Part shown: in pieces, positions 3,740 through 30,819 of the stretch | Layout of the letters: the number at the start of each line of letters is the position of its first letter | How positions within the stretch are numbered: position 1 is the stretch's first letter | Origin: Acidobacteriota bacterium | GTDB lineage: Bacteria; Acidobacteriota; HRBIN11 | Length of the DNA: 31,018 nucleotides | Assembly: GCA_025061865.1 (NCBI GenBank) | Contig: JANXAA010000001.1 | Coordinates: 1 to 31,018, forward strand | Direction of reading: 5' to 3' | Translations under genes and position numbers: made by a program | The notes under the pieces: model-generated | Database searches by the model: none | The model's input: the letters and a program-made list of their open reading frames with translations, nothing else | Told to the model about the DNA's origin: nothing

Positions 3740-4140
3740 GAGGGGGAGTGCAGGCCTCGGGCCTGGGGCGCAGGTGTCTGGCCTGCGAGAAAGCCGATCT
3801 TACCAGCAGTAGACCCCATTCATAAAAACGCCGAAGATGCCGGGCCTCCGGTCCGGCGTCTTGGCAGGGCCGGGCGGGTCCGGTATGATTGGAAGCGTTG
3901 GGTGTTGGATGTCGGGTCGGAGGGGTGCCCGATAGGGAACACAGGGTATGCGGCGTCGGGGACGAGAGTGGGTTTAGGAGAAAAGAAGGCAAGGAGGTCG
4001 GAAAGCCAGGCTATTGGCAGGCAGGTAGGGTCTTCTGGACTCCTTCTCGGGCCGCCTTCTTGTCTGCTTGCCTTCTATTATTCTCCTGGCTCAGCCCCAA
4101 CCCTCCGACACCGAATATCGCATGTACCATCGGTAGGGTC

Positions 4141-7116
4141 ATGGCGTGGGGACTCTTCGGCAAGTCGGACCCCCGGAGTGAAGCCCGGCGAGCCCTCAAG
4201 GCCGGTGACTTCCGCACGGCCGGCGACCGCTTCCGCATGATCGGGGCCTACGATGAGGCCCTCCAGGCCTACACTCAAGGGAGCTTATTTGTCGAAGCGG
4301 CCATGTTATGCGAGGAGATCGGCCAGTGGGAACGGGCCGGCGACTTCTGGGCCCAAGCCCGGCGATACCGGGAAGCCGGAGAGGCCTATCTCAAGGCGGG
4401 ACTGCCCAATGAGGCCCGGCAGGCCTTCGAGAAGGCCCAAGACTACGGCCGTGCCAAGGAGCTGGCCCTGCGGTTGAACCAGTGGGACCGGGCCGGCGAG
4501 TACGCCGAGAAGATCCGTCAGTGGGGAGAAGCCGCTCAGTATTATTACCGGGCCGAGATGTTCGAGAAGGCGGCCCTCGTGGCTGAACGGGCCCTGGAAG
4601 TCTTGGAGGCCGAGCGCAAGGAACGGGAGTACTTGCCCGAATGGCAGCGCGAGTACCGGACCATCTGTCGGATCGCCGCCCAGGCCTACACCCGGACCCA
4701 GCAACTCCACCGGGCGGCCGAGTTGTACGAGGCCATGGGCGAGTTCAAGAAGGCCCGAGAGGCCTATCTTGCTTGCGGGAACGCCGTTAAGGCCCTTGAG
4801 ATGTCGGTCCGACTCGAGGACTACGTGACCGGCCGGTCTATCATCGAGCGCTACCCCGAAGCTCGAGTCGCCCTCCAGTTGTGCGGGCACGTCTACCTTC
4901 ACCTGGGCGAATTCGCCGAGGCGGCCAAGTATTACATGGCGGCTGGCCAGCCCCTCCTGGCCGCCCAGGCCTTCGACCAGATGGGTCGGTACGTCGACGC
5001 GGCCTTTCTTTATGAGCAGGCCGGCGAGTGGGAACAGGCCGGCGAGCTGTACGTCCGGGCCCAGGCCTGGGACCGGGCAGCGGCCATATACGCCAAGATG
5101 GGAAGTCCCCTCCAGGCGGCCGCCTATTACGAGAAGGCCGGCCGTTGGGAGTTAGCCGTCGAGCTATATGCTCAGGCCCAGCGATACACCGACGCCGGCC
5201 GGCTCCTGTATCAACTCGGTCGGACGGATGAGGCCATCGCCCTCCTCCAGAAGGTCGATCGACAAGACCCCACTTACGTTCAGGGCGTGGCCCTGCTGTG
5301 CCGTCTCTGGATCGAGAAAGGAATGGCCAGCCTCGCCCTTCGGCGGGTCGAGGAGCTAATCGCCGCCAAGGACCTCGACACCGATGGGGTCGAGCTGTAT
5401 TACCTCCAGGGTCGGGCCCTGGAAGCCCTGGGCCGCTTTCAGGAAGCCCTGGCCGTCTACGAATCGGTCGTCGCCCAGGACATGCACTACGCCGATACCC
5501 AGGAGCGGATCCAGCGTCTGACGACACCCTCGACCCCGACGGCGCCCGACGTCCAGACCCATGCACTCGACTTGCGGTGGGATGTCTTGGGCGTCCTCGT
5601 CTCAGCGCCGCACATGACCCTCTTGAAGGTCGTCGACAAACAGCGGAACTCGCCGGCCCTGGTCCAGCGAATTCAGGCCCCCGGCCTGGTCCTTTCCGAC
5701 GCGAAGGCCCGACTCCAGGGCCTGCGAGGTCTGCGGCATCGGTTATTGGCCCTCCCGTACGACGTGACCTCTGACGGGGACGCCCTGTTGGTCTGTGTCG
5801 ACTACGCCGAGGGCGTGAGCCTCCGAGAGTGGCTCCGGACGACCCGGTCAGTCGCTGAGGTCCAGGAGGTCACCCTGCAAATTGCCCAGGCCCTGGCCTT
5901 CTGCCACCGTTCCCAGGTCGTCTTCGGGGCCCTCTTGCCGGAGCATGTCCTGGTCGCCTCCGACCGGTCCGTCAAGCTGGTCCCCTGGGATGTCTACCTC
6001 TCGGCCCTACCTACCGAGATGCCCTACGCTTCGCCCGAGTACCGCACCCGCCAGTCCCTAAGCCCGGCCAGTGACGTTTACGCCTTCGGGGTCCTCCTGC
6101 ATGAACTCCTCTTCCATCGGCTCCCCACCTGGCCCCTGAGCCCCTTAGACTCGCCCGGGCAGCCCTCCGGCGCCTCGGGCACTGGAGTCCCGAGTTCCTT
6201 GGTCCGCATCGTGACGGCCTGCCTCCAGCCAGACCCGGCTCAGCGGGTCGCCTCGATGGACGGCGTCGTCGAGGCCCTGGCGACTATCGACATCTACGAG
6301 GGCGCCCTCATCGATGACCGTTATGAGATCTTGAAGGAGCTCGGTCGGGGTGGGATGGCCCGTGTGTACCTCGCTCACGATCGCGTCTTGGGCGAGAAGG
6401 TCGCCCTAAAGGTTTGGCACTCGGACCTGATGGCGATGGCGGCGACGTCCCATCGGCTCCTCCGAGAGGTTAAGCTCGCCCGATCCATCCTCCATCCGAA
6501 CGTCGTGCGGCTGTTCGAGCTGGGGACTTACCGGGGGGCTCGATACGTCACGATGGAGTATGTCCCCGGTGCCTCCTTAGACGCCATCGTCCGCCGGACG
6601 GGGCCCATCCCGCCCCGCCTGTGGTGGAAGCTGGCTGTCCAGATCGTCGAGGGCCTGAAAGCCGCCCATGACGTCGGCGTCATCCACCGGGACCTGAAGC
6701 CCCAAAACATCATGGTCACCCAGGACGGCCGGGTGAAAATCCTAGACTTTGGTATCGCTGGCGTCTTAGATAGTTCAGACCACACGCAAACCCAGAGCAT
6801 CATCGGATCTCCCAAATACATGGCTCCTGAACAGATCCAAGGCCAACGTCTGGACGTCCGGACGGACCTGTATGCCCTGGGGGCCATCTTCTACTTTATG
6901 CTGACCGGCCGAGAAGCCTTTTCGGCCGAGACGGTCCAGGCCATCCTGACCAAGCAGTTGACCGAAATGCCGCTGCCCCTCCAGCATTGGGTCCCGAATC
7001 TGCCGGGGTTCCTAAACGATTGGGTCCTGAAGCTCCTGGCTAAGCGGATGGAGGACCGGCCCCCGAACTGTACGGCCGTCCTCGAATTCCTGTACCGCAT
7101 TAAGGACAGCCTCTGA
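4141..7116 (+). CDS. cytoplasmic TPR-repeat protein with tandem pseudokinase and Hanks-type Ser/Thr kinase domains (991 aa)
   Basis: About 460 aa of A/Y-rich TPR-like repeats. First kinase fold is degenerate (FGALLPEH, KLVPW, ASPE). Second is intact: LGRGGMARVY, VALK, HRDLKPQN, DFG, YMAPE. Start re-assigned to ATG 4141 (MAWGLFGK). Confidence 0.88.
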   Translation: MAWGLFGKSDPRSEARRALKAGDFRTAGDRFRMIGAYDEALQAYTQGSLFVEAAMLCEEIGQWERAGDFWAQARRYREAGEAYLKAGLPNEARQAFEKAQDYGRAKELALRLNQWDRAGEYAEKIRQWGEAAQYYYRAEMFEKAALVAERALEVLEAERKEREYLPEWQREYRTICRIAAQAYTRTQQLHRAAELYEAMGEFKKAREAYLACGNAVKALEMSVRLEDYVTGRSIIERYPEARVALQLCGHVYLHLGEFAEAAKYYMAAGQPLLAAQAFDQMGRYVDAAFLYEQAGEWEQAGELYVRAQAWDRAAAIYAKMGSPLQAAAYYEKAGRWELAVELYAQAQRYTDAGRLLYQLGRTDEAIALLQKVDRQDPTYVQGVALLCRLWIEKGMASLALRRVEELIAAKDLDTDGVELYYLQGRALEALGRFQEALAVYESVVAQDMHYADTQERIQRLTTPSTPTAPDVQTHALDLRWDVLGVLVSAPHMTLLKVVDKQRNSPALVQRIQAPGLVLSDAKARLQGLRGLRHRLLALPYDVTSDGDALLVCVDYAEGVSLREWLRTTRSVAEVQEVTLQIAQALAFCHRSQVVFGALLPEHVLVASDRSVKLVPWDVYLSALPTEMPYASPEYRTRQSLSPASDVYAFGVLLHELLFHRLPTWPLSPLDSPGQPSGASGTGVPSSLVRIVTACLQPDPAQRVASMDGVVEALATIDIYEGALIDDRYEILKELGRGGMARVYLAHDRVLGEKVALKVWHSDLMAMAATSHRLLREVKLARSILHPNVVRLFELGTYRGARYVTMEYVPGASLDAIVRRTGPIPPRLWWKLAVQIVEGLKAAHDVGVIHRDLKPQNIMVTQDGRVKILDFGIAGVLDSSDHTQTQSIIGSPKYMAPEQIQGQRLDVRTDLYALGAIFYFMLTGREAFSAETVQAILTKQLTEMPLPLQHWVPNLPGFLNDWVLKLLAKRMEDRPPNCTAVLEFLYRIKDSL

Positions 7117-17313: not shown

Positions 17314-18030
17314 ATGAAGCTGAGTCGTGCCTTTTTCCGGTTTTGGGTCCAGGAGGACCGGCTCGACGTGGCGACCGATATCGACGGATGGCGTCGATGG
17401 ATCCGCAAGTACACCATCTTAGAGGCCGCTCGGCGGGTCTTAAATCGTCATGGATTGGAGGGCTTGACGGTCGACGCCATCGCTCGGGAGGCCGGTATCA
17501 CGAAGGCGACGGTCTATGCGTATTTTACGAGCCGGGACGAACTCCTCTTCGAGACGGTGCGCTATGTCATGAAGCGATTCCGCTACGGCTGGCTCCGAGC
17601 CGTCCGGCGGGGCCGGTCGACGCGGCAGAAGCTCTTGCGGGCCTTCCGCTATTACCTGCACCATGTGGAAGCCAATCGGTCGGTCTTTGAGGTCCTGTAC
17701 CGGGGCTTACTTTTTACGACGGAGGCCTCCCGGTCGGCCTGCAAGGCCATGATCCATGAGGAACTCAATCATTACCATAGTCACTTGAAGGAACTCATCC
17801 AGCAGGGTATCACCGAGGGTTGGATCCGACCAGTCGTCCCCGACGAGGCGGCCTTCTTTGTCTTACATCTCCTGCATGGGGCCATCATGCGACGGATTTA
17901 TGTCGGGGCCGACCTGTCCGTCCGGGACCACGCCCGCACGCTCTTGAGCTTCTGCCTCCGAGGCTTGATGAATCCATCCGTTCGTCCAGCCCCTGGCCCT
18001 CGAGCGTCAGTCCGGGAGGAACGGCGATGA
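17314..18030 (+). CDS. TetR/AcrR family transcriptional regulator
   Basis: HTH ILEAARRVLNRHGLEGLTVDAIAREAGITKATVYAYFTSRDELL; GGAGGAG upstream. Confidence 0.93.
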   Translation: MKLSRAFFRFWVQEDRLDVATDIDGWRRWIRKYTILEAARRVLNRHGLEGLTVDAIAREAGITKATVYAYFTSRDELLFETVRYVMKRFRYGWLRAVRRGRSTRQKLLRAFRYYLHHVEANRSVFEVLYRGLLFTTEASRSACKAMIHEELNHYHSHLKELIQQGITEGWIRPVVPDEAAFFVLHLLHGAIMRRIYVGADLSVRDHARTLLSFCLRGLMNPSVRPAPGPRASVREERR

Positions 18031-19253
18031 CCGGATTTTGCATTCCGAAGGGTGGATTGCGAAGGGCAGATTGGAACTTTCAAAGGGGGGCATCTCTAAA
18101 GCCCTCCTTTGTTATCCCGGATTTCATCACCGTCCTCCTGGTCATTGGGGGCTTCAGCCTATCGGGAGCCGGCAGCCTTTGGGGGTGTAGCCGGGCCGAG
18201 CGGTCGGCCCGGGCGACGGATACGGCCCCGGCGGTGCCCGTCGTCGTCGCCCCTGTCGAGTCCAAGACCGTCGCTGTGGAGTACCCGTCTGTCGGGACCG
18301 TCGAGGCCTATGCGACGGTCGTTGTCCGTTCGATGGTCGCCGGTGAGCTCCAGGCAGTCCACTTCCGGGAGGGCGATTACGTGCGGCAGGGGGACCTTCT
18401 GTTTACCATCGACCCCGAGCCTTATCGGACGGCCTTGGCTCAGGCCGAAGCGAAGCTGAATCAGGACCGGGTCTTAGCTCAGAATGCCGAGCGGGAGGAG
18501 GCTCGCTATGCGGACCTGCTCCGCCAAGGGATCGTGACGCAGGAGCAGTACGACCGCATCCGGTCTAACGCCGAGGCCTTGCGGGCGGCTGTCCAGGCCG
18601 ATGAGGCGGCTGTAGCCAATGCCCGCCTCCAGCTCGAGTACTGCTTCATCCGGTCGCCTATCACCGGTCGGGCGGGTGCCCTCTTAGTCCATGCGGGAAA
18701 CCTCATTAAGGCCAATGAACGAGACCTGGTCGTGATCCATCAGGTCGAGCCGATCTATGTGACCTTTACTGTGCCCCAGCAGTACTTGCCGGACATCCAG
18801 GTGCAGAGCGGTCGGAATCCCATGCCCGTCGTCGTGACCTTGCCAGGGCATCCCGAAGAGCGCTTCGAAGGTCGCCTGGCCTTTATCGACAACGCCGTCG
18901 ACCCGACGACGGGGACGATCCGGCTGAAGGCCCGGTTGGAGAATTCGACCCGGGGGCTCTGGCCGGGTCAGCTCGTCAACGTCGCCCTGACGCTGAGGGT
19001 CCTTCGGGATGCCGTCGTCGTCCCGGCCCAGGCCGTGCAGGCAGGCCAGGTCGGGACATACGTGTACGTCGTCCGGTCGGACCGGACGGCGGAGCTCCGG
19101 TCGATCGACGTCGCCCATCGTCTGGAGCAGGAGGTCGTCGTCGCTCGAGGGCTTCGACCTGGTGAGCAGGTCGTCATCGACGGTCAGGTCCGTTTGACGG
19201 ACGGAGTGAAGGTGCAGGTGCAAAACCTTGACCCGGAGCCGGTAGGCAGATAG
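18027..19253 (+). CDS. RND efflux periplasmic adaptor (membrane fusion protein) 1
   Basis: ATGA overlap with the TetR stop; LWGC lipobox-like segment; VHFREGDYVRQGDLLFTIDP, IRSPITGRAG, FIDNAVDPTTGTIRLKA, LWPGQLV. Confidence 0.92.
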   Translation: MTGFCIPKGGLRRADWNFQRGASLKPSFVIPDFITVLLVIGGFSLSGAGSLWGCSRAERSARATDTAPAVPVVVAPVESKTVAVEYPSVGTVEAYATVVVRSMVAGELQAVHFREGDYVRQGDLLFTIDPEPYRTALAQAEAKLNQDRVLAQNAEREEARYADLLRQGIVTQEQYDRIRSNAEALRAAVQADEAAVANARLQLEYCFIRSPITGRAGALLVHAGNLIKANERDLVVIHQVEPIYVTFTVPQQYLPDIQVQSGRNPMPVVVTLPGHPEERFEGRLAFIDNAVDPTTGTIRLKARLENSTRGLWPGQLVNVALTLRVLRDAVVVPAQAVQAGQVGTYVYVVRSDRTAELRSIDVAHRLEQEVVVARGLRPGEQVVIDGQVRLTDGVKVQVQNLDPEPVGR

Positions 19254-19321
19254 GCCCGTGGAGAGAAAGAGCGCAGATATCCTCGTCTGCGGCAACGCAG
19301 GCCTCCGGGTTTACGAGAATA

Positions 19322-19402
19322 CAGGCGTCTCGCCTGGGGGAGCGGGGAGAGGCCCCCGCTTTAGCGAGCGGGGCTTGCATCTCAGGCGTTCCGCCTGGGG
19401 GA
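19322..19402. repeat. two 20-nt hairpin-forming direct repeats with a structured 41-nt spacer
   Basis: CAGGCG-tct-CGCCTG-GGGGA (19322-19341) and CAGGCG-ttc-CGCCTG-GGGGA (19383-19402). Confidence 0.7.
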
Positions 19403-19430
19403 CGTAACCTCCGGCCTAGGGAGGTAGGTC

Positions 19431-22400
19431 ATGAACTTATCGGCGCCCTTCATTCGGCGCCCCGTCATGACGACGCTCGTGATGGCGAGCGCCCTCATCT
19501 TCGGGGCAATGGCTTTCCGGCTCCTACCGGTCAGCCACCTGCCGAACGTAGACTTTCCGACGATCTCGGTCTCGGCCAGCCTGCCGGGGGCGAGTCCCGA
19601 GACGATGGCCTCAGCCGTGGCGACGCCCCTGGAGCGTCAGTTCTCGACGATCGCCGGTCTCGAGTCGATGACCTCGACGAGCGGACAGGGCGTCACGCAA
19701 ATCACGCTCCAATTTTCTCTAGACCGGGACATCGACGCCGCCGCCCAGGACGTTCAGGCGGCCATCGCCAAGACGATGCCCCGCCTGCCTCGGGACATGC
19801 CGGCGCCGCCGTCCTACCAGAAGGTGAACCCGGCCGACCAGCCGGTCCTGTATATCGCTTTGACGTCGCCGAGCTTGCCGATGTCGGTCCTCCACGAGTA
19901 TGGCGAGACCCTGATGGCCCAGCGTATCTCGATGGTCAGCGGCGTTGCCCAAGTCCTCGTCTATGGGGCCCAGAAGTATGCCGTGCGCATCCAACTCGAC
20001 CCGAACGCCTTGGCGGCTCGGGGGCTGGGCATCGACGAGGTCGCCCAGGCCGTCCGGCAAGCTAACGTGAATCTCCCGACGGGCGTCCTGTACGGTCCCT
20101 TTCAGGCCTTCACGGTTCAGGCTACAGGCCAACTGACGTCGGCATCGGCCTATCGGCCCATCGTCGTGGCTTACCGGAACGGGGCCCCCGTGCGGTTAAG
20201 CGAGCTCGGACGAGTCGTCGACAGCGTCGAAAACGATAAGACGGCCGCTTGGTTCTATACTTCGGACTCAGCCGAGCGGGCTATCATCTTAGCCGTTCAG
20301 CGTCAGCCAGGGGCCAACACCGTCGAGGTCGTCCGTCAGGTCCGGGCGCTCTTGCCCACGTTCCGTGAGCAACTGCCGGCGTCTGTGGCCCTCCGCATCT
20401 TGTACGACCGCTCGGTCTCGATTCAAGAGTCCGTCCGGGACGTCGAATTCACCCTAGTCCTAACCCTCTTTCTGGTCGTCTTGGTCATCTTTTTGTTTTT
20501 GCGGAATTTACGGGCGACGGCCATTCCCAGCTTGGCCATCCCGATGTCGATCGTCGGGACGTTCATGTTCATGTACCTTCTGGGGTACAGCCTGGACAAC
20601 CTATCCCTGATGGCCCTGACGCTCTCCATCGGGTTCGTCGTCGACGACGCCATCGTCATGCTGGAGAACATCGTGCGCCACATGGAACAGGGCAAGAGCG
20701 CCTGGGTGGCCGCCTTGAAAGGTGCTGAGGAGATCGGCTTCACGATCGTGTCGATGACGCTGTCCTTGGCCGCCGTCTTCATCCCGGTCTTGTTCATGGG
20801 CGGTATCGTCGGGCGGCTGTTCCGGGAGTTTGCCGTCACGATCGGGGTCGCCATCTTATTGTCGGGAGTCGTGTCCCTGTCGTTGACGCCGATGCTATGT
20901 AGCCGGTTCCTGCGGCGGCCGGCTGCGCACGGTCGGTTGTATCAAGCATCCGAGCGGGCTTTTGAGGCCTTGCGGGCTTGGTATGGCCGGTCCCTCGAGG
21001 GGGTCCTTCGTCATCGACGGGCCGTAATGGCCTTCCTGGGGGCGACTCTGATCGCCACAGTCTATCTGTTCTGGGTCATCCCCAAAGGGTTCCTCCCAAC
21101 AGAGGACGCCGGCCAAGTCGTGGTCTTCACGGAAGCCCCCGAGGGGACGGCCTTCGAGTCGATGGTCCAGCGCCAGAGGGTCGTCGCCGACATCGTCCGG
21201 TCCAATCCATATGTAGAAGCCTTCATGTCCAGCGTCGGGGCCCGGGGGAGTTTGACGGGCCCGAATCAGGGCACGCTGTTTATCAGCCTGAAGCCTCGGG
21301 ACCAGCGGCCAGACATCGAGACAGTCGCCGCCGAACTCCGTCGCCAATTGGCCGACGTCCCGGGTCTGCGAGCCTACGTCCAAGTGCCGCCGTCCATTCG
21401 GGTCGGAGGTCGACTGACGAAGAGCCTGTATCAGTACACCCTGCAGGCGCCCAACCCTGAGGAACTTTACCAGTATGCTCCGATTCTGGCCGAACGGATC
21501 GAACGTCTGCCCGGCTTTCTGGACGTCACGACAGACATGCAGATGGCTAATCCGCAGGTGTACGTCGACATCGACCGGGACCGGGCGGCCCGCTTGGGCG
21601 TGACCCCCTTCCAGATCGAGGACGCCCTGTACACGGCCTACGGACCCCGGGAAGTCACGACGATTTATGCCCCAAACAACCAGTACGCAGTCTTGATGGA
21701 GCTTCTGCCCGAGTCCCAAAAGGTCCCGTCCCAGTTGAATCTGCTGCATATCCGCTCCGATCAGGGCCCCCTGGTCCCCCTGAGTGCCGTCGCCCATCTG
21801 CGGACGGACGTCGGCCCCCTGACGGTCAACCATACGGGCCAGCTCCCGTCGGTCACGATTTCCTTCAACTTGGCCCCGGGCTACGCATTGGGAGACGCCG
21901 TAAACGCCATCGAACGGGTCGCCCGCGAGGTCCTGCCCGCGACCGTCGTGACAAGCTTCCAGGGGATGGCCCAGGCGTTCCAGGCGTCCCTGGCGGGATT
22001 GGGCCTGCTACTCCTTACGACCGTCTTGGTCATTTACATCGTCCTGGGCATCTTATACGAGAACTTCATTCACCCCATCACGATCCTCACGGCCCTGCCC
22101 TTTGCCGGTGTCGGGGCCCTGGTGACCCTGCTCCTATTTGGGAAAGAGCTGTCCATCTATGCCTTTGTCGGGATCATCCTGCTGGTCGGCCTCGTTAAGA
22201 AGAACGGTATCATCATGGTCGACTTTGCCATTGAGGCCCGGCGGGCCGGGAAGTCCCCCGAGGAAGCCATCGTCGAGGCTTGTCGGATTCGCTTCCGGCC
22301 CATCATGATGACGACGATGGCGGCCCTGATGGGTGCCCTGCCCATCGCCCTCGGGATCGGTGCCGGTGCCGAGGCCCGCCAGCCCTTAGGCCTGGCCGTC

Positions 22401-22595
22401 GTCGGGGGCCTCCTGTTTTCGCAGACGTTGACCTTGTATGTCACGCCCGTCTTTTACGTCTACATGGAGGCCTTCCAGGCGTGGCTGGCCCGACGGATGC
22501 GGGCACCTCGACCGGCCCTGGAACCGACGCCGTCGCCCGTTTGGCCCCTGGCTAACGGTCAGCCAGAGGAGGGGGCTCAGGAGGTCGGGCGATAG
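19431..22595 (+). CDS. RND efflux permease 1 (AcrB/MdtB-C-like)
   Basis: [47 protein letters not shown]; proton-relay residues intact. Confidence 0.96.
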
Positions 22596-22639
22596 GTGCA
22601 AGGGAGATTCGACGACAACTGGCCTTTGGAGGAGGACTT

Positions 22640-23728
22640 ATGCGGCGTTGGTACTACGTCATCGGCGCCTTTCTGAGCTCGGTCGCCTTGGTCAGCGGCG
22701 TCAGATTTGTCGCCCAGTCGGCCCGGTCGCCGGCTCCGAAAGCGTCATCGTCGGCACCGGCCGGTCCGACGGCTCGGCCGACCGTCAACGTGACCGTCGT
22801 GTCTGCCCGGTTGCAGGCCTGGCCTCGCATCGTCGAGGCTGTCGGGACGGTCGCCGCCTGGGAACAAACGGAGGTCGCCGCCCAGGTCGACGGTCCTGTG
22901 ACGGAAGTCCGCAAGGACGTCGGGGACGCCGTCCGGGCCGGCGAGGTCCTCGCTAAGATCGACGAACGGGAGTATGAACTCCGCTACCGGCAGGCGGAGG
23001 CGGATGCAGAGCAGGCCGTCCGGGACCTCGAACGGGCCGAGCAGATGGCCCGGCAGGGGCTCGTCCCACCCCAACAACTCGAGACGGCCCGGGTCCGGGC
23101 TCAAGTCGCCCGAGCGAACGCCGACATGGCCCGCAAGAAGTATGAGGACACGTCGGTCCGGGCGCCCTACGCCGGAGAGGTCATCCAGCGGCTCGTGTCG
23201 CCGGGCGAATACGTACGTACGGGGCAGCCCCTGTTTGTACTCGTGGACGCCCGTCGCCTCCGGCTGAAGCTCCCGGTGCCCGAGATGGACTATGCCCGGA
23301 TTCAGCCAGGTCAGGTCGTCGAAGTTCGACTCGATGCCCTGCCCGACCGGACCGTCACGGGTCGGGTCTACCGGGTCACGCCGGCCGTCGACCCGTCCAG
23401 CCGTACGGTCCTCGTCGAGGTCCTGATCGAAAACCCCGACGGCCAAGTCCGGCCCGGGATGTTTGCCCGCGCCCGGCTGAAACTGGGGACAGAGGCCCCG
23501 ATGGTGACACTGCCGGCGTCCGCCCTCCAAGCCGTCCCCGGGGGTGTCCAGAAGGTCTACGTCGTCGAGGGCGATACAGTCCGGGAGCGGCGCGTCGAGG
23601 TCGCCTTTTACGTCGAGGGCCAGGTCGTCCTGCGTTCGGGCGTCCGGCCCGGCGAGCGGGTCGTCGCCCCGATCCCGCCGACGATCTGGGACGGCATGGC
23701 CGTGCGGGAGGTAGACAATCAGAAGTAA
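22640..23728 (+). CDS. RND efflux periplasmic adaptor 2
   Basis: N-terminal TM anchor, EVAAQVDG, DVGDAVRAGEVLAKID, VRAPYAG, VDPSSRT, VRPGMF; GGAGGAGG upstream. Confidence 0.92.
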   Translation: MRRWYYVIGAFLSSVALVSGVRFVAQSARSPAPKASSSAPAGPTARPTVNVTVVSARLQAWPRIVEAVGTVAAWEQTEVAAQVDGPVTEVRKDVGDAVRAGEVLAKIDEREYELRYRQAEADAEQAVRDLERAEQMARQGLVPPQQLETARVRAQVARANADMARKKYEDTSVRAPYAGEVIQRLVSPGEYVRTGQPLFVLVDARRLRLKLPVPEMDYARIQPGQVVEVRLDALPDRTVTGRVYRVTPAVDPSSRTVLVEVLIENPDGQVRPGMFARARLKLGTEAPMVTLPASALQAVPGGVQKVYVVEGDTVRERRVEVAFYVEGQVVLRSGVRPGERVVAPIPPTIWDGMAVREVDNQK

Positions 23729-23928
23729 AGATTGGCCCTATCCGTCGGTGCTTCGGTGAAGGTGTGACACGACAGTTCACATCTCGAGCGAAAGCCCGGC
23801 TGGACAGACATCGCTATAACGCTAGGGTGAGCTGAAGATTTTTACCCCGTCACTCCCAGTCGTGTCTCCTTACCTGTCCATCCGCACACTTGCCTACCCA
23901 CTCAGGGGTAGTCATCGGAGGTTCCGCC

Positions 23929-26900
23929 ATGACATCCTCGAACGCTTCGGACCGGGAACGCCGAGGCGTGGCGCTATTCGTATACCGCCCCGTCTTGGCG
24001 ACGATGATCGTCGCCTTCCTGGTTACATTGGGATGGGTCTCGTTTCGAGGGTTGCCCATCGACCTCTTTCCTAACGTCGAGTTCCCCGTCGTGACGGTCA
24101 TCACAGCCCTGCCGGGGGCCAGCCCTGAGGAAATAGAGTCGACCGTCACGAAGCCTCTTGAAGAAGCCATTAACACAGCCAGCGGCATCGAGGAGCTCCG
24201 ATCCTATAGCCAAGAGGGTCTCTCGACCATCGTCGTGTCTTTTGTCTTAGAGAAGGACCCCCTCGAGGCCGTTCAAGACGTCCGAGATAAGGTCAATAGC
24301 GTGTTGTCTCAACTTCCGACAGGGACGAAGCCCCCCATCATTTCAAGGTTGGACTTCGGGGCCGTACCCATTCTTTACATCGTCGTATCGTCCCCTCGGG
24401 ACCTCCGGGAGACGACCGAGATCGCCCGCAAGCTCCTGAAGGAACCCCTGGAAACGGTTTCGGGCGTCGGGTCTATCGTCCTCTTCGGGGGTCGGGAACG
24501 GGTCCTTCAGGTCGACCTCATCGTCGACCGGCTCCGGGCCTTCGACCTGCCCGTCGTGGCCGTCTGGAATGCCATCCAGGCCCAAAATCTCGAGTACCCC
24601 GGCGGGCGCCTTACGACCGAGGACCAGGAGACGGGCGTCCGCTTGCAGGCCCGGGTCCGCAGTGCCGAGGACCTGGCGAATCTGGCCATCGCTGAACGGA
24701 ACGGCGCCATCCTCCGCCTGAAGGACGTCGCCGTCGTCCGGGACGGCTTCAAGGAGCCGCGTCAGCTCAGCCGACTTTGGATCCGGGGTCGGGGCGACAT
24801 TCCCGAGGAAAGCGTCACGCTGGTCGTCTTCAAGCAGGCCCGGACCAATACCGTGCAGGTCATCGAGGCCGTCAAGGCGCGTCTGACGGAGATCCGCCAG
24901 ACCCTGCCGCCGGATATCCAGACCCATATCTTGAGCGACCAGTCTCGCTTTATCCGGGAATCGATCCGGGAGCTTCAGATTCACCTGATCCTGGGGGCTG
25001 TCTTAGCCAGCCTGGTCGTCTTCGTGTTCCTGCGGAACTGGCAGGCCACGTTAATCAGTGCCCTAGCCATCCCGACGAGTCTGATCGCGACATTCATCTT
25101 CATGGGAGCTTTTGGATACTCATTAAATACGATGACCTTGCTGGGCCTGACGGTCGCCGTCGGGATCGTCATCGATGACGCCATCGTCGTCATCGAGAAC
25201 ATCTTCCGACACATGGAGGAATACGGCGTCTCGGCCTTCCAGGCGGCCATCCGGGGGTTCCGGGAAATTGCCCTGGCCGTGACGGCGACGACCTTTTCGT
25301 TGGTCATCATCTTCCTGCCCATCGCCTTCCTAAAGGGTCGGGCGGGCCTGTTCCTCCGACAGTTCGGATGGACCAGTGCCGTGGCCATCTTGTTTTCACT
25401 TTTGATCGCCTATGTCCTGACGCCGATGCTGGCCTCCCGACTCCTCCGACCCCAGAAGGTCCGCTCGAAGGGGACCGGGTTCTACCGATGGATCGAGGCG
25501 GGCTACGTGGGAATCCTCCGGTGGTCGCTCCGGCATCGGTGGGTCGTCGTCCTCATAGCGGCCCTGTGCGTCTTGAGCACGGGCTTCATCGCTCGTTGGA
25601 TGGGGAAAGAGTTCATCGCCAGTGACGATACAGGGGAATTTGCTGTGTCCCTCGAGGCACCGCCCGGGTCCGCCTTAGAGACGACCGACCGCCTCTTGCT
25701 CCGAATCTTCGAACGGATTCGGAACATCCCCGAAATCCAGGCGATGGTCCTGCGCGTCGGTGACATCACGGCGGGAAGCGAAGCTGTCTATCAGGGCAAC
25801 ATTTACGTTCAACTGGTAGACTATCGGACACGCCGGCGGAGTCAATTCGATATCATGCGAGAGATCCGCGAAGTCCTAGGGCAGTTCCCCGAGCTTCGGG
25901 CCCAGGTCACCGAAGCGACCCTCATCGGCGGTGCCGCAACCGGGGGTTGGCAATTTCCTGTGAATGTCGTCCTGACAGGACCTGACCTCGATGTCTTAGA
26001 GAGCTTGGCCCGTCATGTCATGGATCGCATGCGAGCGACACCGGGTTTTGCGAGTGTAGACTCGTCGATCCCAGCCCGGCTTCCCGAATTCCAGGTCCGG
26101 GTCCTCTACGACCGGGCTCAGACCCTGGGCGTACGGGCTCAGGACGTGGCCCTGACCCTTCGACTTCTGCTAGGTGGAGACGAGGTCTCCAGCTTCCGAG
26201 AGGGCGTCGACCGCTACGGCATCTGGCTTCGGCTCCGGCCTGAGGACCGTCAGCGCTTAGACGACGTCTTGACGCTTCCCGTCCCGTCCCTCCGGGGTGC
26301 GAACGTGGAACTTCGCAACGTGGCTCAGGTCGAATACGGCGTCGCTCCGGCGGCGATCCAGCACTGGAACCGGTCGCGGGTCGTCAACGTCCTGGCGACG
26401 TTAGACGGCCTCGACCTGGGGCGGGCCCTGGACGTCGTCCGGCAGGCTTTCGCCGAGGTCCGTCCCTCGCCAGCCTACGAGCTCCACGTGTTGGGACGGG
26501 GCAAGATCATGGCCGAGACCTTCGCCAACTTTTTGACGGCCTTTGGCCTGGCCTTTGTCTTCATGTATATCATCCTGGCCGCTCAGTTCGAGCACTTCCT
26601 CCATCCCGTGACGATCCTCCTGTCGATTCCCCTGACCCTGCCGTTTGCCCTCCTGTCGCTGTGGCTGTGGGGTGAGAACTTAGGCCTATACGGCCTCATG
26701 GGGACGTTCCTCTTGGCCGGCGTCGTCAAGAAGAATGGCATCCTGCAGGTCGACTACACGAACCGCCTACGGTCGCAAGGCCTCAGTCGGTGGGATGCCC
26801 TGATTGAGGCGAACCGCACCCGGCTCCGACCGATCCTAATGACGACCTTCACGCTGGTGATGGGCATGGTGCCGATTGCCTTAGGGCAGGGACCCGGAGC

Positions 26901-27087
26901 GGCCAGTCGGGCATCGCTGGCCAAGGCCATCGTCGGGGGCCAGCTCCTGAGCCTATTGATTACTCTCCTGATCGTGCCCGTCGGCTACAGTCTGTTTGAC
27001 GACCTGACGGGTTGGGTCCGGCGGCGGGTCCGGCGAGTCGTACCGACCGAGGCCGTGACTCCAGCGGCCTCCAGCGGTTCGGAGTAG
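23929..27087 (+). CDS. RND efflux permease 2 (AcrB family)
   Basis: FVYRPVLATM, GIVIDDAIVVIENI, GVVKKNGILQVDY, RLRPILMTT; ATG 23929 follows GGAGG. Confidence 0.95.
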   Translation: MTSSNASDRERRGVALFVYRPVLATMIVAFLVTLGWVSFRGLPIDLFPNVEFPVVTVITALPGASPEEIESTVTKPLEEAINTASGIEELRSYSQEGLSTIVVSFVLEKDPLEAVQDVRDKVNSVLSQLPTGTKPPIISRLDFGAVPILYIVVSSPRDLRETTEIARKLLKEPLETVSGVGSIVLFGGRERVLQVDLIVDRLRAFDLPVVAVWNAIQAQNLEYPGGRLTTEDQETGVRLQARVRSAEDLANLAIAERNGAILRLKDVAVVRDGFKEPRQLSRLWIRGRGDIPEESVTLVVFKQARTNTVQVIEAVKARLTEIRQTLPPDIQTHILSDQSRFIRESIRELQIHLILGAVLASLVVFVFLRNWQATLISALAIPTSLIATFIFMGAFGYSLNTMTLLGLTVAVGIVIDDAIVVIENIFRHMEEYGVSAFQAAIRGFREIALAVTATTFSLVIIFLPIAFLKGRAGLFLRQFGWTSAVAILFSLLIAYVLTPMLASRLLRPQKVRSKGTGFYRWIEAGYVGILRWSLRHRWVVVLIAALCVLSTGFIARWMGKEFIASDDTGEFAVSLEAPPGSALETTDRLLLRIFERIRNIPEIQAMVLRVGDITAGSEAVYQGNIYVQLVDYRTRRRSQFDIMREIREVLGQFPELRAQVTEATLIGGAATGGWQFPVNVVLTGPDLDVLESLARHVMDRMRATPGFASVDSSIPARLPEFQVRVLYDRAQTLGVRAQDVALTLRLLLGGDEVSSFREGVDRYGIWLRLRPEDRQRLDDVLTLPVPSLRGANVELRNVAQVEYGVAPAAIQHWNRSRVVNVLATLDGLDLGRALDVVRQAFAEVRPSPAYELHVLGRGKIMAETFANFLTAFGLAFVFMYIILAAQFEHFLHPVTILLSIPLTLPFALLSLWLWGENLGLYGLMGTFLLAGVVKKNGILQVDYTNRLRSQGLSRWDALIEANRTRLRPILMTTFTLVMGMVPIALGQGPGAASRASLAKAIVGGQLLSLLITLLIVPVGYSLFDDLTGWVRRRVRRVVPTEAVTPAASSGSE

Positions 27088-27991: not shown

Positions 27992-28062
27992 GGGGGCCCT
28001 CCAGGGTCTCCCCTGTCCTATAGGGCTTTCCGTCCTTCACGGGACAGGTAGGACGGATTCCC

Positions 28063-28238
28063 TAACTTGCTGAAGCTAGCTGGTGCGCGGATCAGGAGGT
28101 CTTGGATAGCAACGAAGGCGTTCAAAGCTTTTTCCAACCGACCTGCCTAAACAACTCCAAGGCCTATCGCCCGTCATGATTCGAACATCGAATATCATCC
28201 CCCTCTTTGGACAGCCACGCCGTCGTGACCGGCTCCAT
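28063..28238 (-). pseudogene. possible eroded HEPN-domain gene fragment
   Basis: MEPVTTAWLSKEGDD then a stop at 28164; another frame reads LEKALNAF. Both resemble the start and the EKxLKA helix of small HEPN proteins. Pattern recognition only. Confidence 0.3.
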
Positions 28239-28385
28239 TCCCTTGACGGAGCATCCCTCCTACCCTTGTCCCCTTAAATTTGGGGTGGGAGACCTTAGGT
28301 CGGTCGGTGTGGGATATCCGAGGTCAGGCCTTCCCTGATCCCCGACCCCTGACAGCCTCGAATCCTGAACCCGGGACTCCCAGTC

Positions 28386-28414
28386 ATTATAGGCCCAGGT
28401 GAGCTCTCTTGGAA
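28386..28414 (-). promoter_or_regulatory. sigma70-type promoter upstream of the fdhD region
   Basis: Minus strand TTCCAA-N17-TATAAT. Confidence 0.55.
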
Positions 28415-28429
28415 ACGGGTGCCTAAAAC

Positions 28430-29779
28430 CTACGAACGGAGGGCCCCCATCGTCAGGACAGCCGCCAAGGCGACCAAGATGGCATTCAGCTCGTAGGTCG
28501 TCGCCAGGCCCCGGGACCGTAAGGTATGTCCCAAGAAGGATTCCCCAAAATTAGCGACGGCTACAGCGAGGACCACCCAAGGCACCCAGGCGACCGGGAA
28601 ACCCCAGAGCACGGCGCCCAGGCCGACGAGGCTGGCCCCGGCGGCCAGTCCGGCGGCCGTCCCGACGACGGAAATGGCGCCCGGCGTGCCGACCGGGACC
28701 GAACGGCCGGCCCACCACAAGAAGGCTGGGCCCCCGAAGCCCTTCCCGACCTCACTGGCGACCGTGTCCATCAGGCCCGCCCCATAGGCTGCCACGAGGC
28801 CGGCGGCGATCCAAGCCCGATCGTCTGCCGGGGCTAAGGCCCACCAGACTGCCAGCAGGGCCGGCAGGCCCGCCTTCACGACGGCGCTGCGCCAGTCCCG
28901 AGGCGACTCGGCCAAGCCGCGGGCGGCTTTCACGTCGCGCGCCCATCGGGTCGCCAGGCTCCCGCCGACAAAGAGGACCAGTAGGAGCAGGTAAGCCCGC
29001 CACCCGCCCGCCAGGAACGTCACGACCCCGATGACCCAGCCGGACCAGAACCCCGAGCCGCTGACCCAGCCGAGGCTCCAGGCCGTGCCGCCGATAATCC
29101 AGTTGAGGCCCAGGCCCAAAAGGATTTGGGCGACCGAGGGCGTCCAGGCCCAGTCGTTCCAGGGGACGTGATAGGCCATGTAGAGCAGGGCCCCGGCACT
29201 CAGGGGAATCGTCAGGTTGTCGTTAAGCCGCAGGTCCAAGGCCTCCAGGCCCGCCGTCAGCAGGCTCACGATCAAGGGGATCCATAGGAAGAAGGCTGCC
29301 CCGTCCTGCAAGGGCAGGCCTGTCGGGACCCGGCCGCCGGTCGTCCACAAAAGCAAGGCCCAGCTTCCTACGAAGGCGCCGCTGACATACGCCAGGCTCC
29401 CCTCGACGGTCTTTTTCGAATGCCACGGCCATCGCACCCGCCCGACCCAGGGTCCTATCAGGCCGGCCAGGCCGTCTCCGAAGGCCATCATCGCCCAAGC
29501 GGCGGCGACGACGTAGGGGTAGGACCCAAAGACCAGGATCAGCAACAGGACCGACAGCGGGTAGGCGATGATCCCGACGGAGGCCTGGCCCGGGGTCTGC
29601 TCGTCGGACCGATAGAGGTAGCGGCCCCACAGCCTCGGCAGGATCCATACGTTATGGGCCAAGGCGGCCAGGGCACACAAGGCCGCCTGCCAGGGCGTCA
29701 GGTATCGGAGCAAGAGGGCAAAGAAGCCCATCGTCATGTGGACCAGCTTGCGCACGACGTCTCGACGACGCTCTGACAT
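28430..29779 (-). CDS. fusion of a phytol/dolichol-kinase-like (CTP-dependent) domain and a DUF92 (TMEM19/VTE6-like) domain, 449 aa
   Basis: ATG 29779 follows GGAGG. N-half: RKLVH, GDGLAGLIG, KKTVEGS, DNLTIP. C-half: G-rich helices, DTVASEVG, PVGTPGAISVVGT, NFGESFLG, N-terminal-like TTYELN ending. Confidence 0.8.
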   Translation of the reverse strand: MSERRRDVVRKLVHMTMGFFALLLRYLTPWQAALCALAALAHNVWILPRLWGRYLYRSDEQTPGQASVGIIAYPLSVLLLILVFGSYPYVVAAAWAMMAFGDGLAGLIGPWVGRVRWPWHSKKTVEGSLAYVSGAFVGSWALLLWTTGGRVPTGLPLQDGAAFFLWIPLIVSLLTAGLEALDLRLNDNLTIPLSAGALLYMAYHVPWNDWAWTPSVAQILLGLGLNWIIGGTAWSLGWVSGSGFWSGWVIGVVTFLAGGWRAYLLLLVLFVGGSLATRWARDVKAARGLAESPRDWRSAVVKAGLPALLAVWWALAPADDRAWIAAGLVAAYGAGLMDTVASEVGKGFGGPAFLWWAGRSVPVGTPGAISVVGTAAGLAAGASLVGLGAVLWGFPVAWVPWVVLAVAVANFGESFLGHTLRSRGLATTYELNAILVALAAVLTMGALRS

Positions 29780-29874
29780 CGGGGGCCCTCCATGTTCCGG
29801 GCCGGGTGACGGGAGTCGGGGCCGGGGGCCGGACTCGGCCTTTTCCCCGGCCCCTGAAGACCCAACATCCGAAT

Positions 29875-30819
29875 TCACTCCCACCGAATCCCCAACAGGT
29901 CTAAGTCCGATGGCCGCTGACGCCACCTCTCCCGGACCCGGACCTGGAGGTCTAAGTATACACGCCGACCTAAGAGGGCCTCGATCTCTTGGCGGGCGCG
30001 GGTCCCGATGCGCTTGAGCATCTGCCCGCCTTGACCGATAAGGATTCCCTTCTGGGAGTCTTTCTCGACCCAGACGTCGGCATAGACGACCAGGACGTGT
30101 CCCTTGTCTTCGACCTGCTGGACGTGGACGGCCGTGCAGTAGGGGACCTCCTGTCGAGTATAATGGAAGATTTTCTCCCGAATGAGTTCGCCGATGAGAA
30201 AGCTCTCGTCGGCGTCGGTCCACTGGCCCGGTGGAAACAGGGGCGGACCTTTCGGGAGGTACTTCAGGATCGTCTGGACGAGGTCCTCGACGTTGGTCCC
30301 CCGTAAGGCCGAGACGGGCACGATCTCCCGGAAGTCCATCCACTGACGGTACCGGTCGATGACCGGCAGGATCTCCTGCTTAGGGACTCGATCAATCTTG
30401 TTAATGATGAGGAAGACAGGCGTCTCGGCCTGGACCTCCCGCAGGAGGTTCAGGATAGGTTCGTGCGGCCGGTACGCCTCCCGCTCGATGTCGATGACCC
30501 ACCCGATGAGGTCCACGTTGCGAAGGCAGGCATAGGCGATTTGGACCATCCGCTTGTTGAGCTCGAAGTGGGGCTCGTGGATCCCAGGTGTGTCCCAAAA
30601 GACGATTTGACCTTCCGGGCGGGTCAGGACGCCCGTGATGCGAGTCCGAGTCGTCTGCGGCTTGGGCGACACGATAGCGACCTTCCGGCCCAGGATACGA
30701 TTCAGGAGGGTCGACTTGCCGACATTCGTCTGACCGACGAGGGAGACGATCCCAGCCCGAAAGCCGGGCGGCGGGGTCCACGTTTCCGGCACCGGAGGTC
30801 GAGATACCTCCTTCTTCAT
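29875..30819 (-). CDS. era: GTPase Era
   Basis: G1 GQTNVGKS, G2 PQTTR, G3 DTPG, G4 NKID, ELIREK...EVPY, KH domain SQKGILIGQGGQMLKRIG. Confidence 0.97.
   Translation of the reverse strand: MKKEVSRPPVPETWTPPPGFRAGIVSLVGQTNVGKSTLLNRILGRKVAIVSPKPQTTRTRITGVLTRPEGQIVFWDTPGIHEPHFELNKRMVQIAYACLRNVDLIGWVIDIEREAYRPHEPILNLLREVQAETPVFLIINKIDRVPKQEILPVIDRYRQWMDFREIVPVSALRGTNVEDLVQTILKYLPKGPPLFPPGQWTDADESFLIGELIREKIFHYTRQEVPYCTAVHVQQVEDKGHVLVVYADVWVEKDSQKGILIGQGGQMLKRIGTRARQEIEALLGRRVYLDLQVRVRERWRQRPSDLDLLGIRWE

What the first reader, a model, noticed from the sequence alone, without database searches (positions are those of the whole stretch)
28430..30819. VTE5-like plus VTE6-like double kinase fusion next to era
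Seen: one protein joins a phytol/dolichol-kinase-type domain to a DUF92 domain, 95 nt downstream of era. Known: plant VTE5 (phytol kinase) and the DUF92 protein VTE6 (phytyl-phosphate kinase) act in sequence, and such fusions are known in some bacteria; in Firmicutes the undecaprenol kinase dgkA lies in the era cluster. Inference: a two-step alcohol to phosphate to diphosphate salvage enzyme for undecaprenol or another prenol, possibly replacing DgkA. No photosynthesis genes are visible in this window.
Basis: partly seen in the sequence, partly recalled or inferred. Interest (0 to 1): 0.62.

Follow-up and report, generated by a model that had tools for sequence, protein, structure and literature searches.

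The report
Fused prenol kinases; era link incidental
A bacterium of the phylum Acidobacteriota carries a membrane protein that joins two enzymes probably able to re-activate free isoprenoid alcohols; this fusion is already known, its place beside the era gene is a local accident, and its real partner across the phylum is an uncharacterised prenyltransferase whose product is unknown.

Summary
The fusion is real. ORF 28430-29779 (minus strand, 449 aa) starts 95 nt after the era stop. Its N-domain is Sec59/VTE5-like by predicted structure only, since no HMM hits it; its C-domain is DUF92/VTE6-like (Pfam E 2e-31). Both resemble the CTP-using CdsA/CarS fold. This architecture is published (Methanosarcina Mbar_A3310) and occurs in 30 of 61 Acidobacteriota genomes searched. 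The era/DgkA inference fails its own test: era is adjacent only in the three genomes of this genus, and dgkA is missing from most of the phylum with or without the fusion. The conserved partners are an orphan UbiA prenyltransferase (both genes in 28 genomes, fusion alone 2, UbiA alone 1, neither 30), an HpnA-like reductase and lptD. In this genome they lie on other contigs but are all kept. Best reading (0.6): prenol to prenyl-phosphate to prenyl-diphosphate salvage that feeds that UbiA. The acceptor is unknown; chlorophyllide, homogentisate and GGGP are unlikely because their genes were not found. Nothing is assayed. This scan noted the same module earlier in several other genomes.

The parts
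28430..29779 (-). Fusion gene, 449 aa integral membrane protein: Sec59/VTE5-like domain plus DUF92/VTE6-like domain
   Evidence: Single ORF; 209 homologues, best 120 mostly full-length; AlphaFold pLDDT 95, pTM 0.92
29165..29779 (-). N-domain (residues 1-205), Sec59/VTE5/FOLK-type CTP-dependent lipid-alcohol kinase-like; D102, E179, D187, N188 invariant, K123 conserved
   Evidence: (CdsA 4Q2E Z 8.6; CarS 5GUF Z 8.0)
28433..29146 (-). C-domain (residues 212-449), DUF92/COG1836/VTE6-like; K284, R294, D338, E343 invariant, S370 nearly invariant
   Evidence: Pfam PF01940 E 2.1e-31; TIGR00297 below cut-off, 107 vs 206 bits; CarS Z 8.7, CdsA Z 7.1
29787..29791 (-). Shine-Dalgarno-like GGAGG, 7 nt before the ATG
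   Evidence: Sequence
29780..29874 (.). 95-nt era-fusion spacer with no predicted terminator or promoter; different length and sequence in the two sister genomes
29875..30819 (-). era GTPase; neighbour only in this genus, not part of the module
   Evidence: TIGR00436 278 bits vs cut-off 116

Best explanation
A bifunctional membrane prenol-salvage enzyme. The N-domain transfers a phosphate from CTP to a free isoprenoid alcohol, probably a C15-C20 one. The DUF92 domain adds the second phosphate. The resulting prenyl diphosphate is the donor for an orphan UbiA-family prenyltransferase (in this genome G000:C549:2027-2974, minus strand), which puts the prenyl chain on an unknown, possibly envelope-related acceptor. 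An HpnA-like reductase (G000:C19) may supply the alcohol from the aldehyde. Shown: architecture, fold, conserved acidic residues, gene linkage and co-occurrence. Inferred: kinase chemistry, order of steps, chain length, role of the reductase, the acceptor. The era adjacency is a genus-specific rearrangement.
For: Both domains match the CTP-using CdsA/CarS fold and align weakly with each other at the D...E motifs (hhalign E 1e-3, probability 22%). The N-domain is nearest to phytol/Sec59 kinases. VTE5 and VTE6 act in sequence, prefer CTP and also accept geranylgeraniol (PMC9782597, PMC13415981). The UbiA gene is adjacent to the fusion in 11 of 30 fusion genomes and in 24 of 29 bacterial loci found from the UbiA side. 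Co-occurrence is 28 both, 2 fusion only, 1 UbiA only, 30 neither, and holds where the genes are unlinked, as in this genome. UbiA enzymes use prenyl diphosphate (established knowledge). The HpnA-like SDR lies directly upstream in 18 loci and is kept in this genome.
Against: No activity was measured. The N-domain is not assigned by any HMM. The fold matches are to cytidylyltransferases, at moderate Z for a helical protein. The genome has dxr and four polyprenyl synthases, so the need for salvage is unexplained. Several DUF92 positions differ in this family (N302K, E372V, N428T, N435L). Related genomes are not independent, so the co-occurrence P value overstates. lptD and the sugar genes may be old synteny rather than partners.
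Confidence: 0.6

Rival explanations
1. The fusion acts downstream of the UbiA or on a glycerolipid: one domain phosphorylates a lipid alcohol (diacylglycerol or a prenyl-ether lipid) and the DUF92 domain activates it as a CDP-lipid, as CdsA and CarS do.
For: The best PDB matches of both domains are CarS and CdsA. Makarova et al. place COG1836 in the cytidylyltransferase family. The UbiA's best solved relative is DGGGP synthase (E 9e-21).
Against: The only characterised DUF92 protein, VTE6, is a phytyl-phosphate kinase. No GGGP synthase (PcrB) above cut-off in any of 61 genomes. Archaea that have this UbiA clade also carry a separate, more DGGGPS-like gene.
Confidence: 0.17
2. It recycles undecaprenol for envelope glycan synthesis (lptD and rml linkage), independent of era.
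For: lptD lies upstream in 20 loci and nucleotide-sugar genes in many. Archaeal DUF92 genes sit next to uppS. bacA was not found in this genus.
Against: The usable carrier is the monophosphate, so a second kinase would work against it (established knowledge). bacA is present in most fusion genomes (56 of 61 overall) and PAP2 phosphatases are present in this genus. It does not explain the tight link to the UbiA.
Confidence: 0.12
3. One reading: a DgkA replacement that belongs to the era cluster.
For: 95-nt co-directional spacing without a predicted terminator; dgkA not found in this genome or in any fusion-bearing genome.
Against: era is adjacent in 3 of 30 fusion genomes, all one genus. Spacer length varies. 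dgkA is also missing from 27 of 31 genomes without the fusion.
Confidence: 0.04
4. In this family the DUF92 domain is altered or inactive and only the first kinase works.
For: 16 of 52 conserved C-domain columns differ in this protein, against a mean of 1.2 in more distant homologues.
Against: N302K occurs in 22 of 59 rows across the phylum, and K284, R294, D338, E343, S370, E413, S414 and N432 are kept.
Confidence: 0.07

Closest known systems
Archaeal two-domain arCOG02245 proteins, e.g. Methanosarcina barkeri Mbar_A3310 (Makarova et al. 2015, PMC5898192)
   Same: Same architecture: N-terminal COG0170/Sec59-like domain of about 210 aa plus C-terminal COG1836/DUF92; predicted kinase role in isoprenoid metabolism.
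   Different: Archaeal context is uppS; here it is an orphan UbiA, an HpnA-like SDR and lptD. Neither is assayed. Direct sequence comparison with Mbar_A3310 was not run.
Plant and cyanobacterial VTE5/FOLK plus VTE6 phytol and farnesol salvage
   Same: Same two families and the predicted sequential CTP-dependent phosphorylation that feeds a UbiA-family prenyltransferase.
   Different: Fused in one chain; non-photosynthetic host (no BchH); no HPPD in nearly all carriers; the partner UbiA is below the cut-offs of ChlG, HPT and DGGGPS models.
DgkA undecaprenol kinase of Firmicutes (PF01219)
   Same: Lipid-alcohol kinase activity; lies in the era cluster in Firmicutes (own knowledge).
   Different: Unrelated family (no PF01219 hit); ATP-dependent small trimer; the era linkage here is genus-specific.
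CdsA (4Q2E) and CarS (5GUF) cytidylyltransferases
   Same: Fold of both domains (Z 7.1-8.7).
   Different: 13-17% identity; they make CDP-lipids rather than phosphorylating.

Membership tests
DUF92/COG1836 (VTE6-like) | PF01940 above gathering cut-off | tested here: met
   109.6 bits vs 27.5
DUF92/COG1836 (VTE6-like) | TIGR00297 equivalog cut-off | tested here: not met
   106.8 vs 205.85 bits
DUF92/COG1836 (VTE6-like) | Conserved acidic and polar residues of the family (DT.SE, ES, terminal N) | tested here: met
   D338, E343, S370, E413, S414, N432 kept; N302 and N428 substituted
DUF92/COG1836 (VTE6-like) | Prenyl-phosphate kinase activity | not testable with these tools
   Needs an assay
COG0170 Sec59/VTE5/FOLK kinases | Profile HMM assignment | tested here: inconclusive
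   No hit for this protein; 10 of 72 homologues hit PF01148; no COG0170 profile available
COG0170 Sec59/VTE5/FOLK kinases | Fold and conserved GD, K, E, DN motifs | tested here: met
   TM 0.82 to a plant phytol kinase cluster, 0.79 to a SEC59/DGK1/VTE5 cluster; D102, E179, D187, N188 invariant
COG0170 Sec59/VTE5/FOLK kinases | CTP-dependent prenol kinase activity | not testable with these tools
   Needs an assay
COG0170-COG1836 fusion (Mbar_A3310 type) | N-terminal Sec59-like domain plus C-terminal DUF92 in one chain | tested here: met
   definition from PMC5898192
Firmicutes dgkA-era cluster | Conserved linkage to era | tested here: not met
   3 of 30 genomes, one genus
Firmicutes dgkA-era cluster | PF01219 family membership | tested here: not met
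   No hit
Phytol salvage for tocopherol or chlorophyll | Chlorophyll synthesis and homogentisate supply in the host | tested here: not met
   BchH not found in G000 (87% complete); HPPD match in only 2 of 30 fusion genomes, one below cut-off
Archaeal-type ether lipid pathway (GGGPS plus DGGGPS) | GGGP synthase (PcrB) in the same genome | tested here: not met
   0 of 61 above cut-off

The most novel reading that the evidence does not exclude
The fusion, the HpnA-like reductase and an orphan UbiA clade shared with Thermoplasmatota archaea form an undescribed pathway, present in about half of the Acidobacteriota sampled, that salvages free prenols and builds an unknown prenylated membrane or envelope lipid. 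The partnership persists even where the operon is broken up.
Probability: 0.4. Interest if true: 0.55.

Novelty: new member of a known kind. Interest (0 to 1): 0.32.

Why it matters
Only a few polyprenol and polyprenyl-phosphate kinases are identified, all in phototrophs (PMC9782597). A single-chain version from a non-phototroph whose nearest named relative is bacterium HR11 would be a convenient test case and possibly a one-gene prenol-activation tool. The tight link to an orphan UbiA points to an unknown isoprenoid lipid in an abundant phylum. The era/DgkA angle that made this window stand out does not hold.

Tried and rejected
Era linkage and DgkA replacement: rejected. BacA replacement: rejected, no anti-correlation. 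Partner UbiA as menaquinone or heme enzyme: unlikely, the genome has separate heme o synthase-, MqnP-, MenA- and DPPR-synthase-like genes. As DGGGP synthase: no PcrB, and the archaeal relatives are extra to a canonical-type gene. As homogentisate prenyltransferase: all 120 homologues have the NQxxDxxxD motif seen in plant aromatic prenyltransferases, but HPPD is absent from almost all carriers. Hopanoid link through HpnA: no squalene-hopene cyclase above cut-off in G000. Isoprenoid auxotrophy: rejected, dxr present. Foldseek on the whole model and a sequence search of the PDB found nothing. Genes flanking the unlinked UbiA copies showed no shared partner. vom Dorp 2015, Seaver 2014 and Bhandari 2010 were not held, so the fusions they may describe and the likeness of the SDR to plant farnesol dehydrogenase FLDH were not checked; the FLDH parallel is from my own knowledge. 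A search of protein representatives with the C-domain alignment stayed in the queue and was not collected. No complex prediction was run because no binding is claimed. The SDR orthology threshold (E below 1e-60) was set after seeing the scores.

Full report
Observation. The minus-strand ORF 28430-29779 encodes 449 aa from an ATG with a GGAGG 7 nt upstream. It begins 95 nt after the stop of a full-length era gene. Pfam finds DUF92 at residues 228-425 (E 2.1e-31) and nothing on residues 1-205; NCBIfam gives only TIGR00297 below cut-off. The nearest named homologue is from bacterium HR11 (88%), and the others of the best 120 listed are mostly full-length proteins at 35-57%, with Acidobacteriota (Vicinamibacterales) names where given.

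N-domain identity. Ten of 72 homologous N-domains hit PF01148. The ESM Atlas feature search gives cytidylyltransferase-family, phytol kinase and polyprenol kinase clusters at 0.90-0.91. An AlphaFold model of the domain (pLDDT 94) matches a plant phytol kinase cluster (TM 0.82) and a SEC59/DGK1/VTE5 cluster (TM 0.79). Its two best PDB matches are CdsA (Z 8.6) and CarS (Z 8.0). The C-domain of the full model (pLDDT 95) has CarS first (Z 8.7) and CdsA fourth (Z 7.1). These Z values are moderate for helical proteins, but the same two related enzymes come up for both domains. D102, E179, D187 and N188 are invariant, and the two halves align weakly at their D...E motifs.

The era link. A full-length fusion was found in 30 of 61 genomes of the phylum. 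Era is adjacent only in G000, G001 and G002, one genus; in the same-family genome G003 and the rest it lies elsewhere or, in one case, was not found. The spacer differs among the three, and upstream of era in G002 is a nicotinate phosphoribosyltransferase. dgkA was not found here, but it is in only 4 of 61 genomes, so its absence carries no information. bacA was not found in this genus but is in 56 of 61 genomes, including most fusion carriers; PAP2 phosphatases are present in the genus. BchH was not found. G000 is 87% complete, so these are 'not found', not proven absences.

The real context. Elsewhere in the phylum the fusion sits in the block lptD - (rml and other SDR sugar genes) - HpnA-like SDR - fusion - UbiA. 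lptD is upstream in 20 loci, the HpnA-like SDR directly upstream in 18, and the UbiA adjacent in 11 of 30 genomes (convergent in one). Searching from the UbiA side, 24 of 29 bacterial loci have the fusion directly upstream. Genome-wide, both genes occur in 28 genomes, the fusion alone in 2, the UbiA alone in 1, neither in 30. One of the 28 is the unpublished genome G035, which is also one of the 11 adjacent cases; without it the counts are 27 and 10. G019, counted under neither, has an N-domain cut by a contig end and may be a third fusion-only case. Related genomes are not independent, so the Fisher value overstates, but the pattern spans 16 families. In G000 the block is dispersed and each part is kept: UbiA on C549 (64% to a linked copy), SDR on C19 (42%), lptD on C567. 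Retention after dispersal argues for functional coupling and shows that era is a new, chance neighbour.

The partner UbiA. Its linked orthologues score below the cut-offs of ChlG, DGGGPS and homogentisate phytyltransferase models, and its best solved relatives are DGGGP synthase and chlorophyll synthase. G000 has separate heme o synthase-, MqnP-, MenA- and DPPR-synthase-like genes. No GGGP synthase passes cut-off in 61 genomes, and HPPD matches in only 2 of 30 fusion genomes, so GGGP and homogentisate are unlikely acceptors despite the NQxxDxxxD motif. The closest relatives found outside the phylum are in Thermoplasmatota: 25 of 81 genomes at 39-45% identity. In the two archaeal genomes checked they are extra to a more DGGGPS-like gene and to a stand-alone DUF92. 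In some they lie next to genes that look like GGPP synthase, IDI-2 and isopentenyl-phosphate kinase (read from motifs, not HMM-tested).

Mechanism. By analogy with VTE5/FOLK and VTE6, which phosphorylate phytol, farnesol or geranylgeraniol in two CTP-preferring steps, the N-domain makes prenyl phosphate and the DUF92 domain prenyl diphosphate, which the UbiA consumes. The SDR may reduce the aldehyde, as plant FLDH does upstream of FOLK (homology to FLDH not tested). De novo supply exists (dxr, four polyprenyl synthases), so this would be recycling or scavenging. The main rival is CDP-activation by one domain. The DUF92 domain of this family is divergent, but the shared substitutions recur across the phylum and the core residues are kept.

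Comparison and verdict. Makarova et al. (PMC5898192) describe the same COG0170 plus COG1836 architecture in Methanosarcina and predict an isoprenoid kinase role. The protein is therefore a new member of a known kind. I found the UbiA link before opening earlier notes; those notes show that this scan reported the same module in several other genomes, which is agreement among unchecked AI reports, not independent evidence. No paper describing the acidobacterial module turned up in the searches run. This window adds a lineage where the operon is broken up and the partners persist. Interest 0.32.

Noticed in passing
window 27992-28429: Spacer between the fusion and fdhD (57% GC vs 64% for the window) holds a fragment similar to a PaREP1-family gene (43% over 37 aa, E 2e-4) that is an open 141-aa frame at this place in sister genome G001; probably a decayed copy.
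   Followed up: partly
window 28386-28415 (minus strand): Sigma-70-like promoter match (10 of 12) just after the fusion stop, facing fdhD; a weak terminator-like hairpin overlaps the end of the fusion gene.
   Followed up: no
G000, G001, G002 (whole genomes): bacA/uppP was not found in any of the three genomes of this genus although 56 of 61 phylum genomes have it; PAP2 phosphatases are present.
   Followed up: partly
L125:3245-7906 and L162-L186: Thermoplasmatota archaea carry an extra UbiA of the same orphan clade, in some cases beside genes resembling GGPP synthase, IDI-2 and isopentenyl-phosphate kinase.
   Followed up: partly
window 17820-27087: Two tandem membrane-fusion-protein plus large RND-type membrane protein pairs (HlyD-family hits at 17820-19253 and 22640-23728; 1054 and 1065 aa ORFs).
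   Followed up: no
window 3889-7116: 1075-aa protein with a C-terminal Ser/Thr kinase domain and TPR-like segments.
   Followed up: no
L110, L113, L115, L120, L121, L123, L124, L030: A subgroup of fusions has a strongly altered DUF92 C-terminal end (N432H and neighbours), and some appear truncated there; possibly a different substrate.
   Followed up: no
G005:C4:1510363-1511665; G021, G054: The fusion is split into two frames in G005 (possible frameshift or sequencing error; its dxr is split too). In family f12 one genome has only the fusion and another only the UbiA.
   Followed up: no
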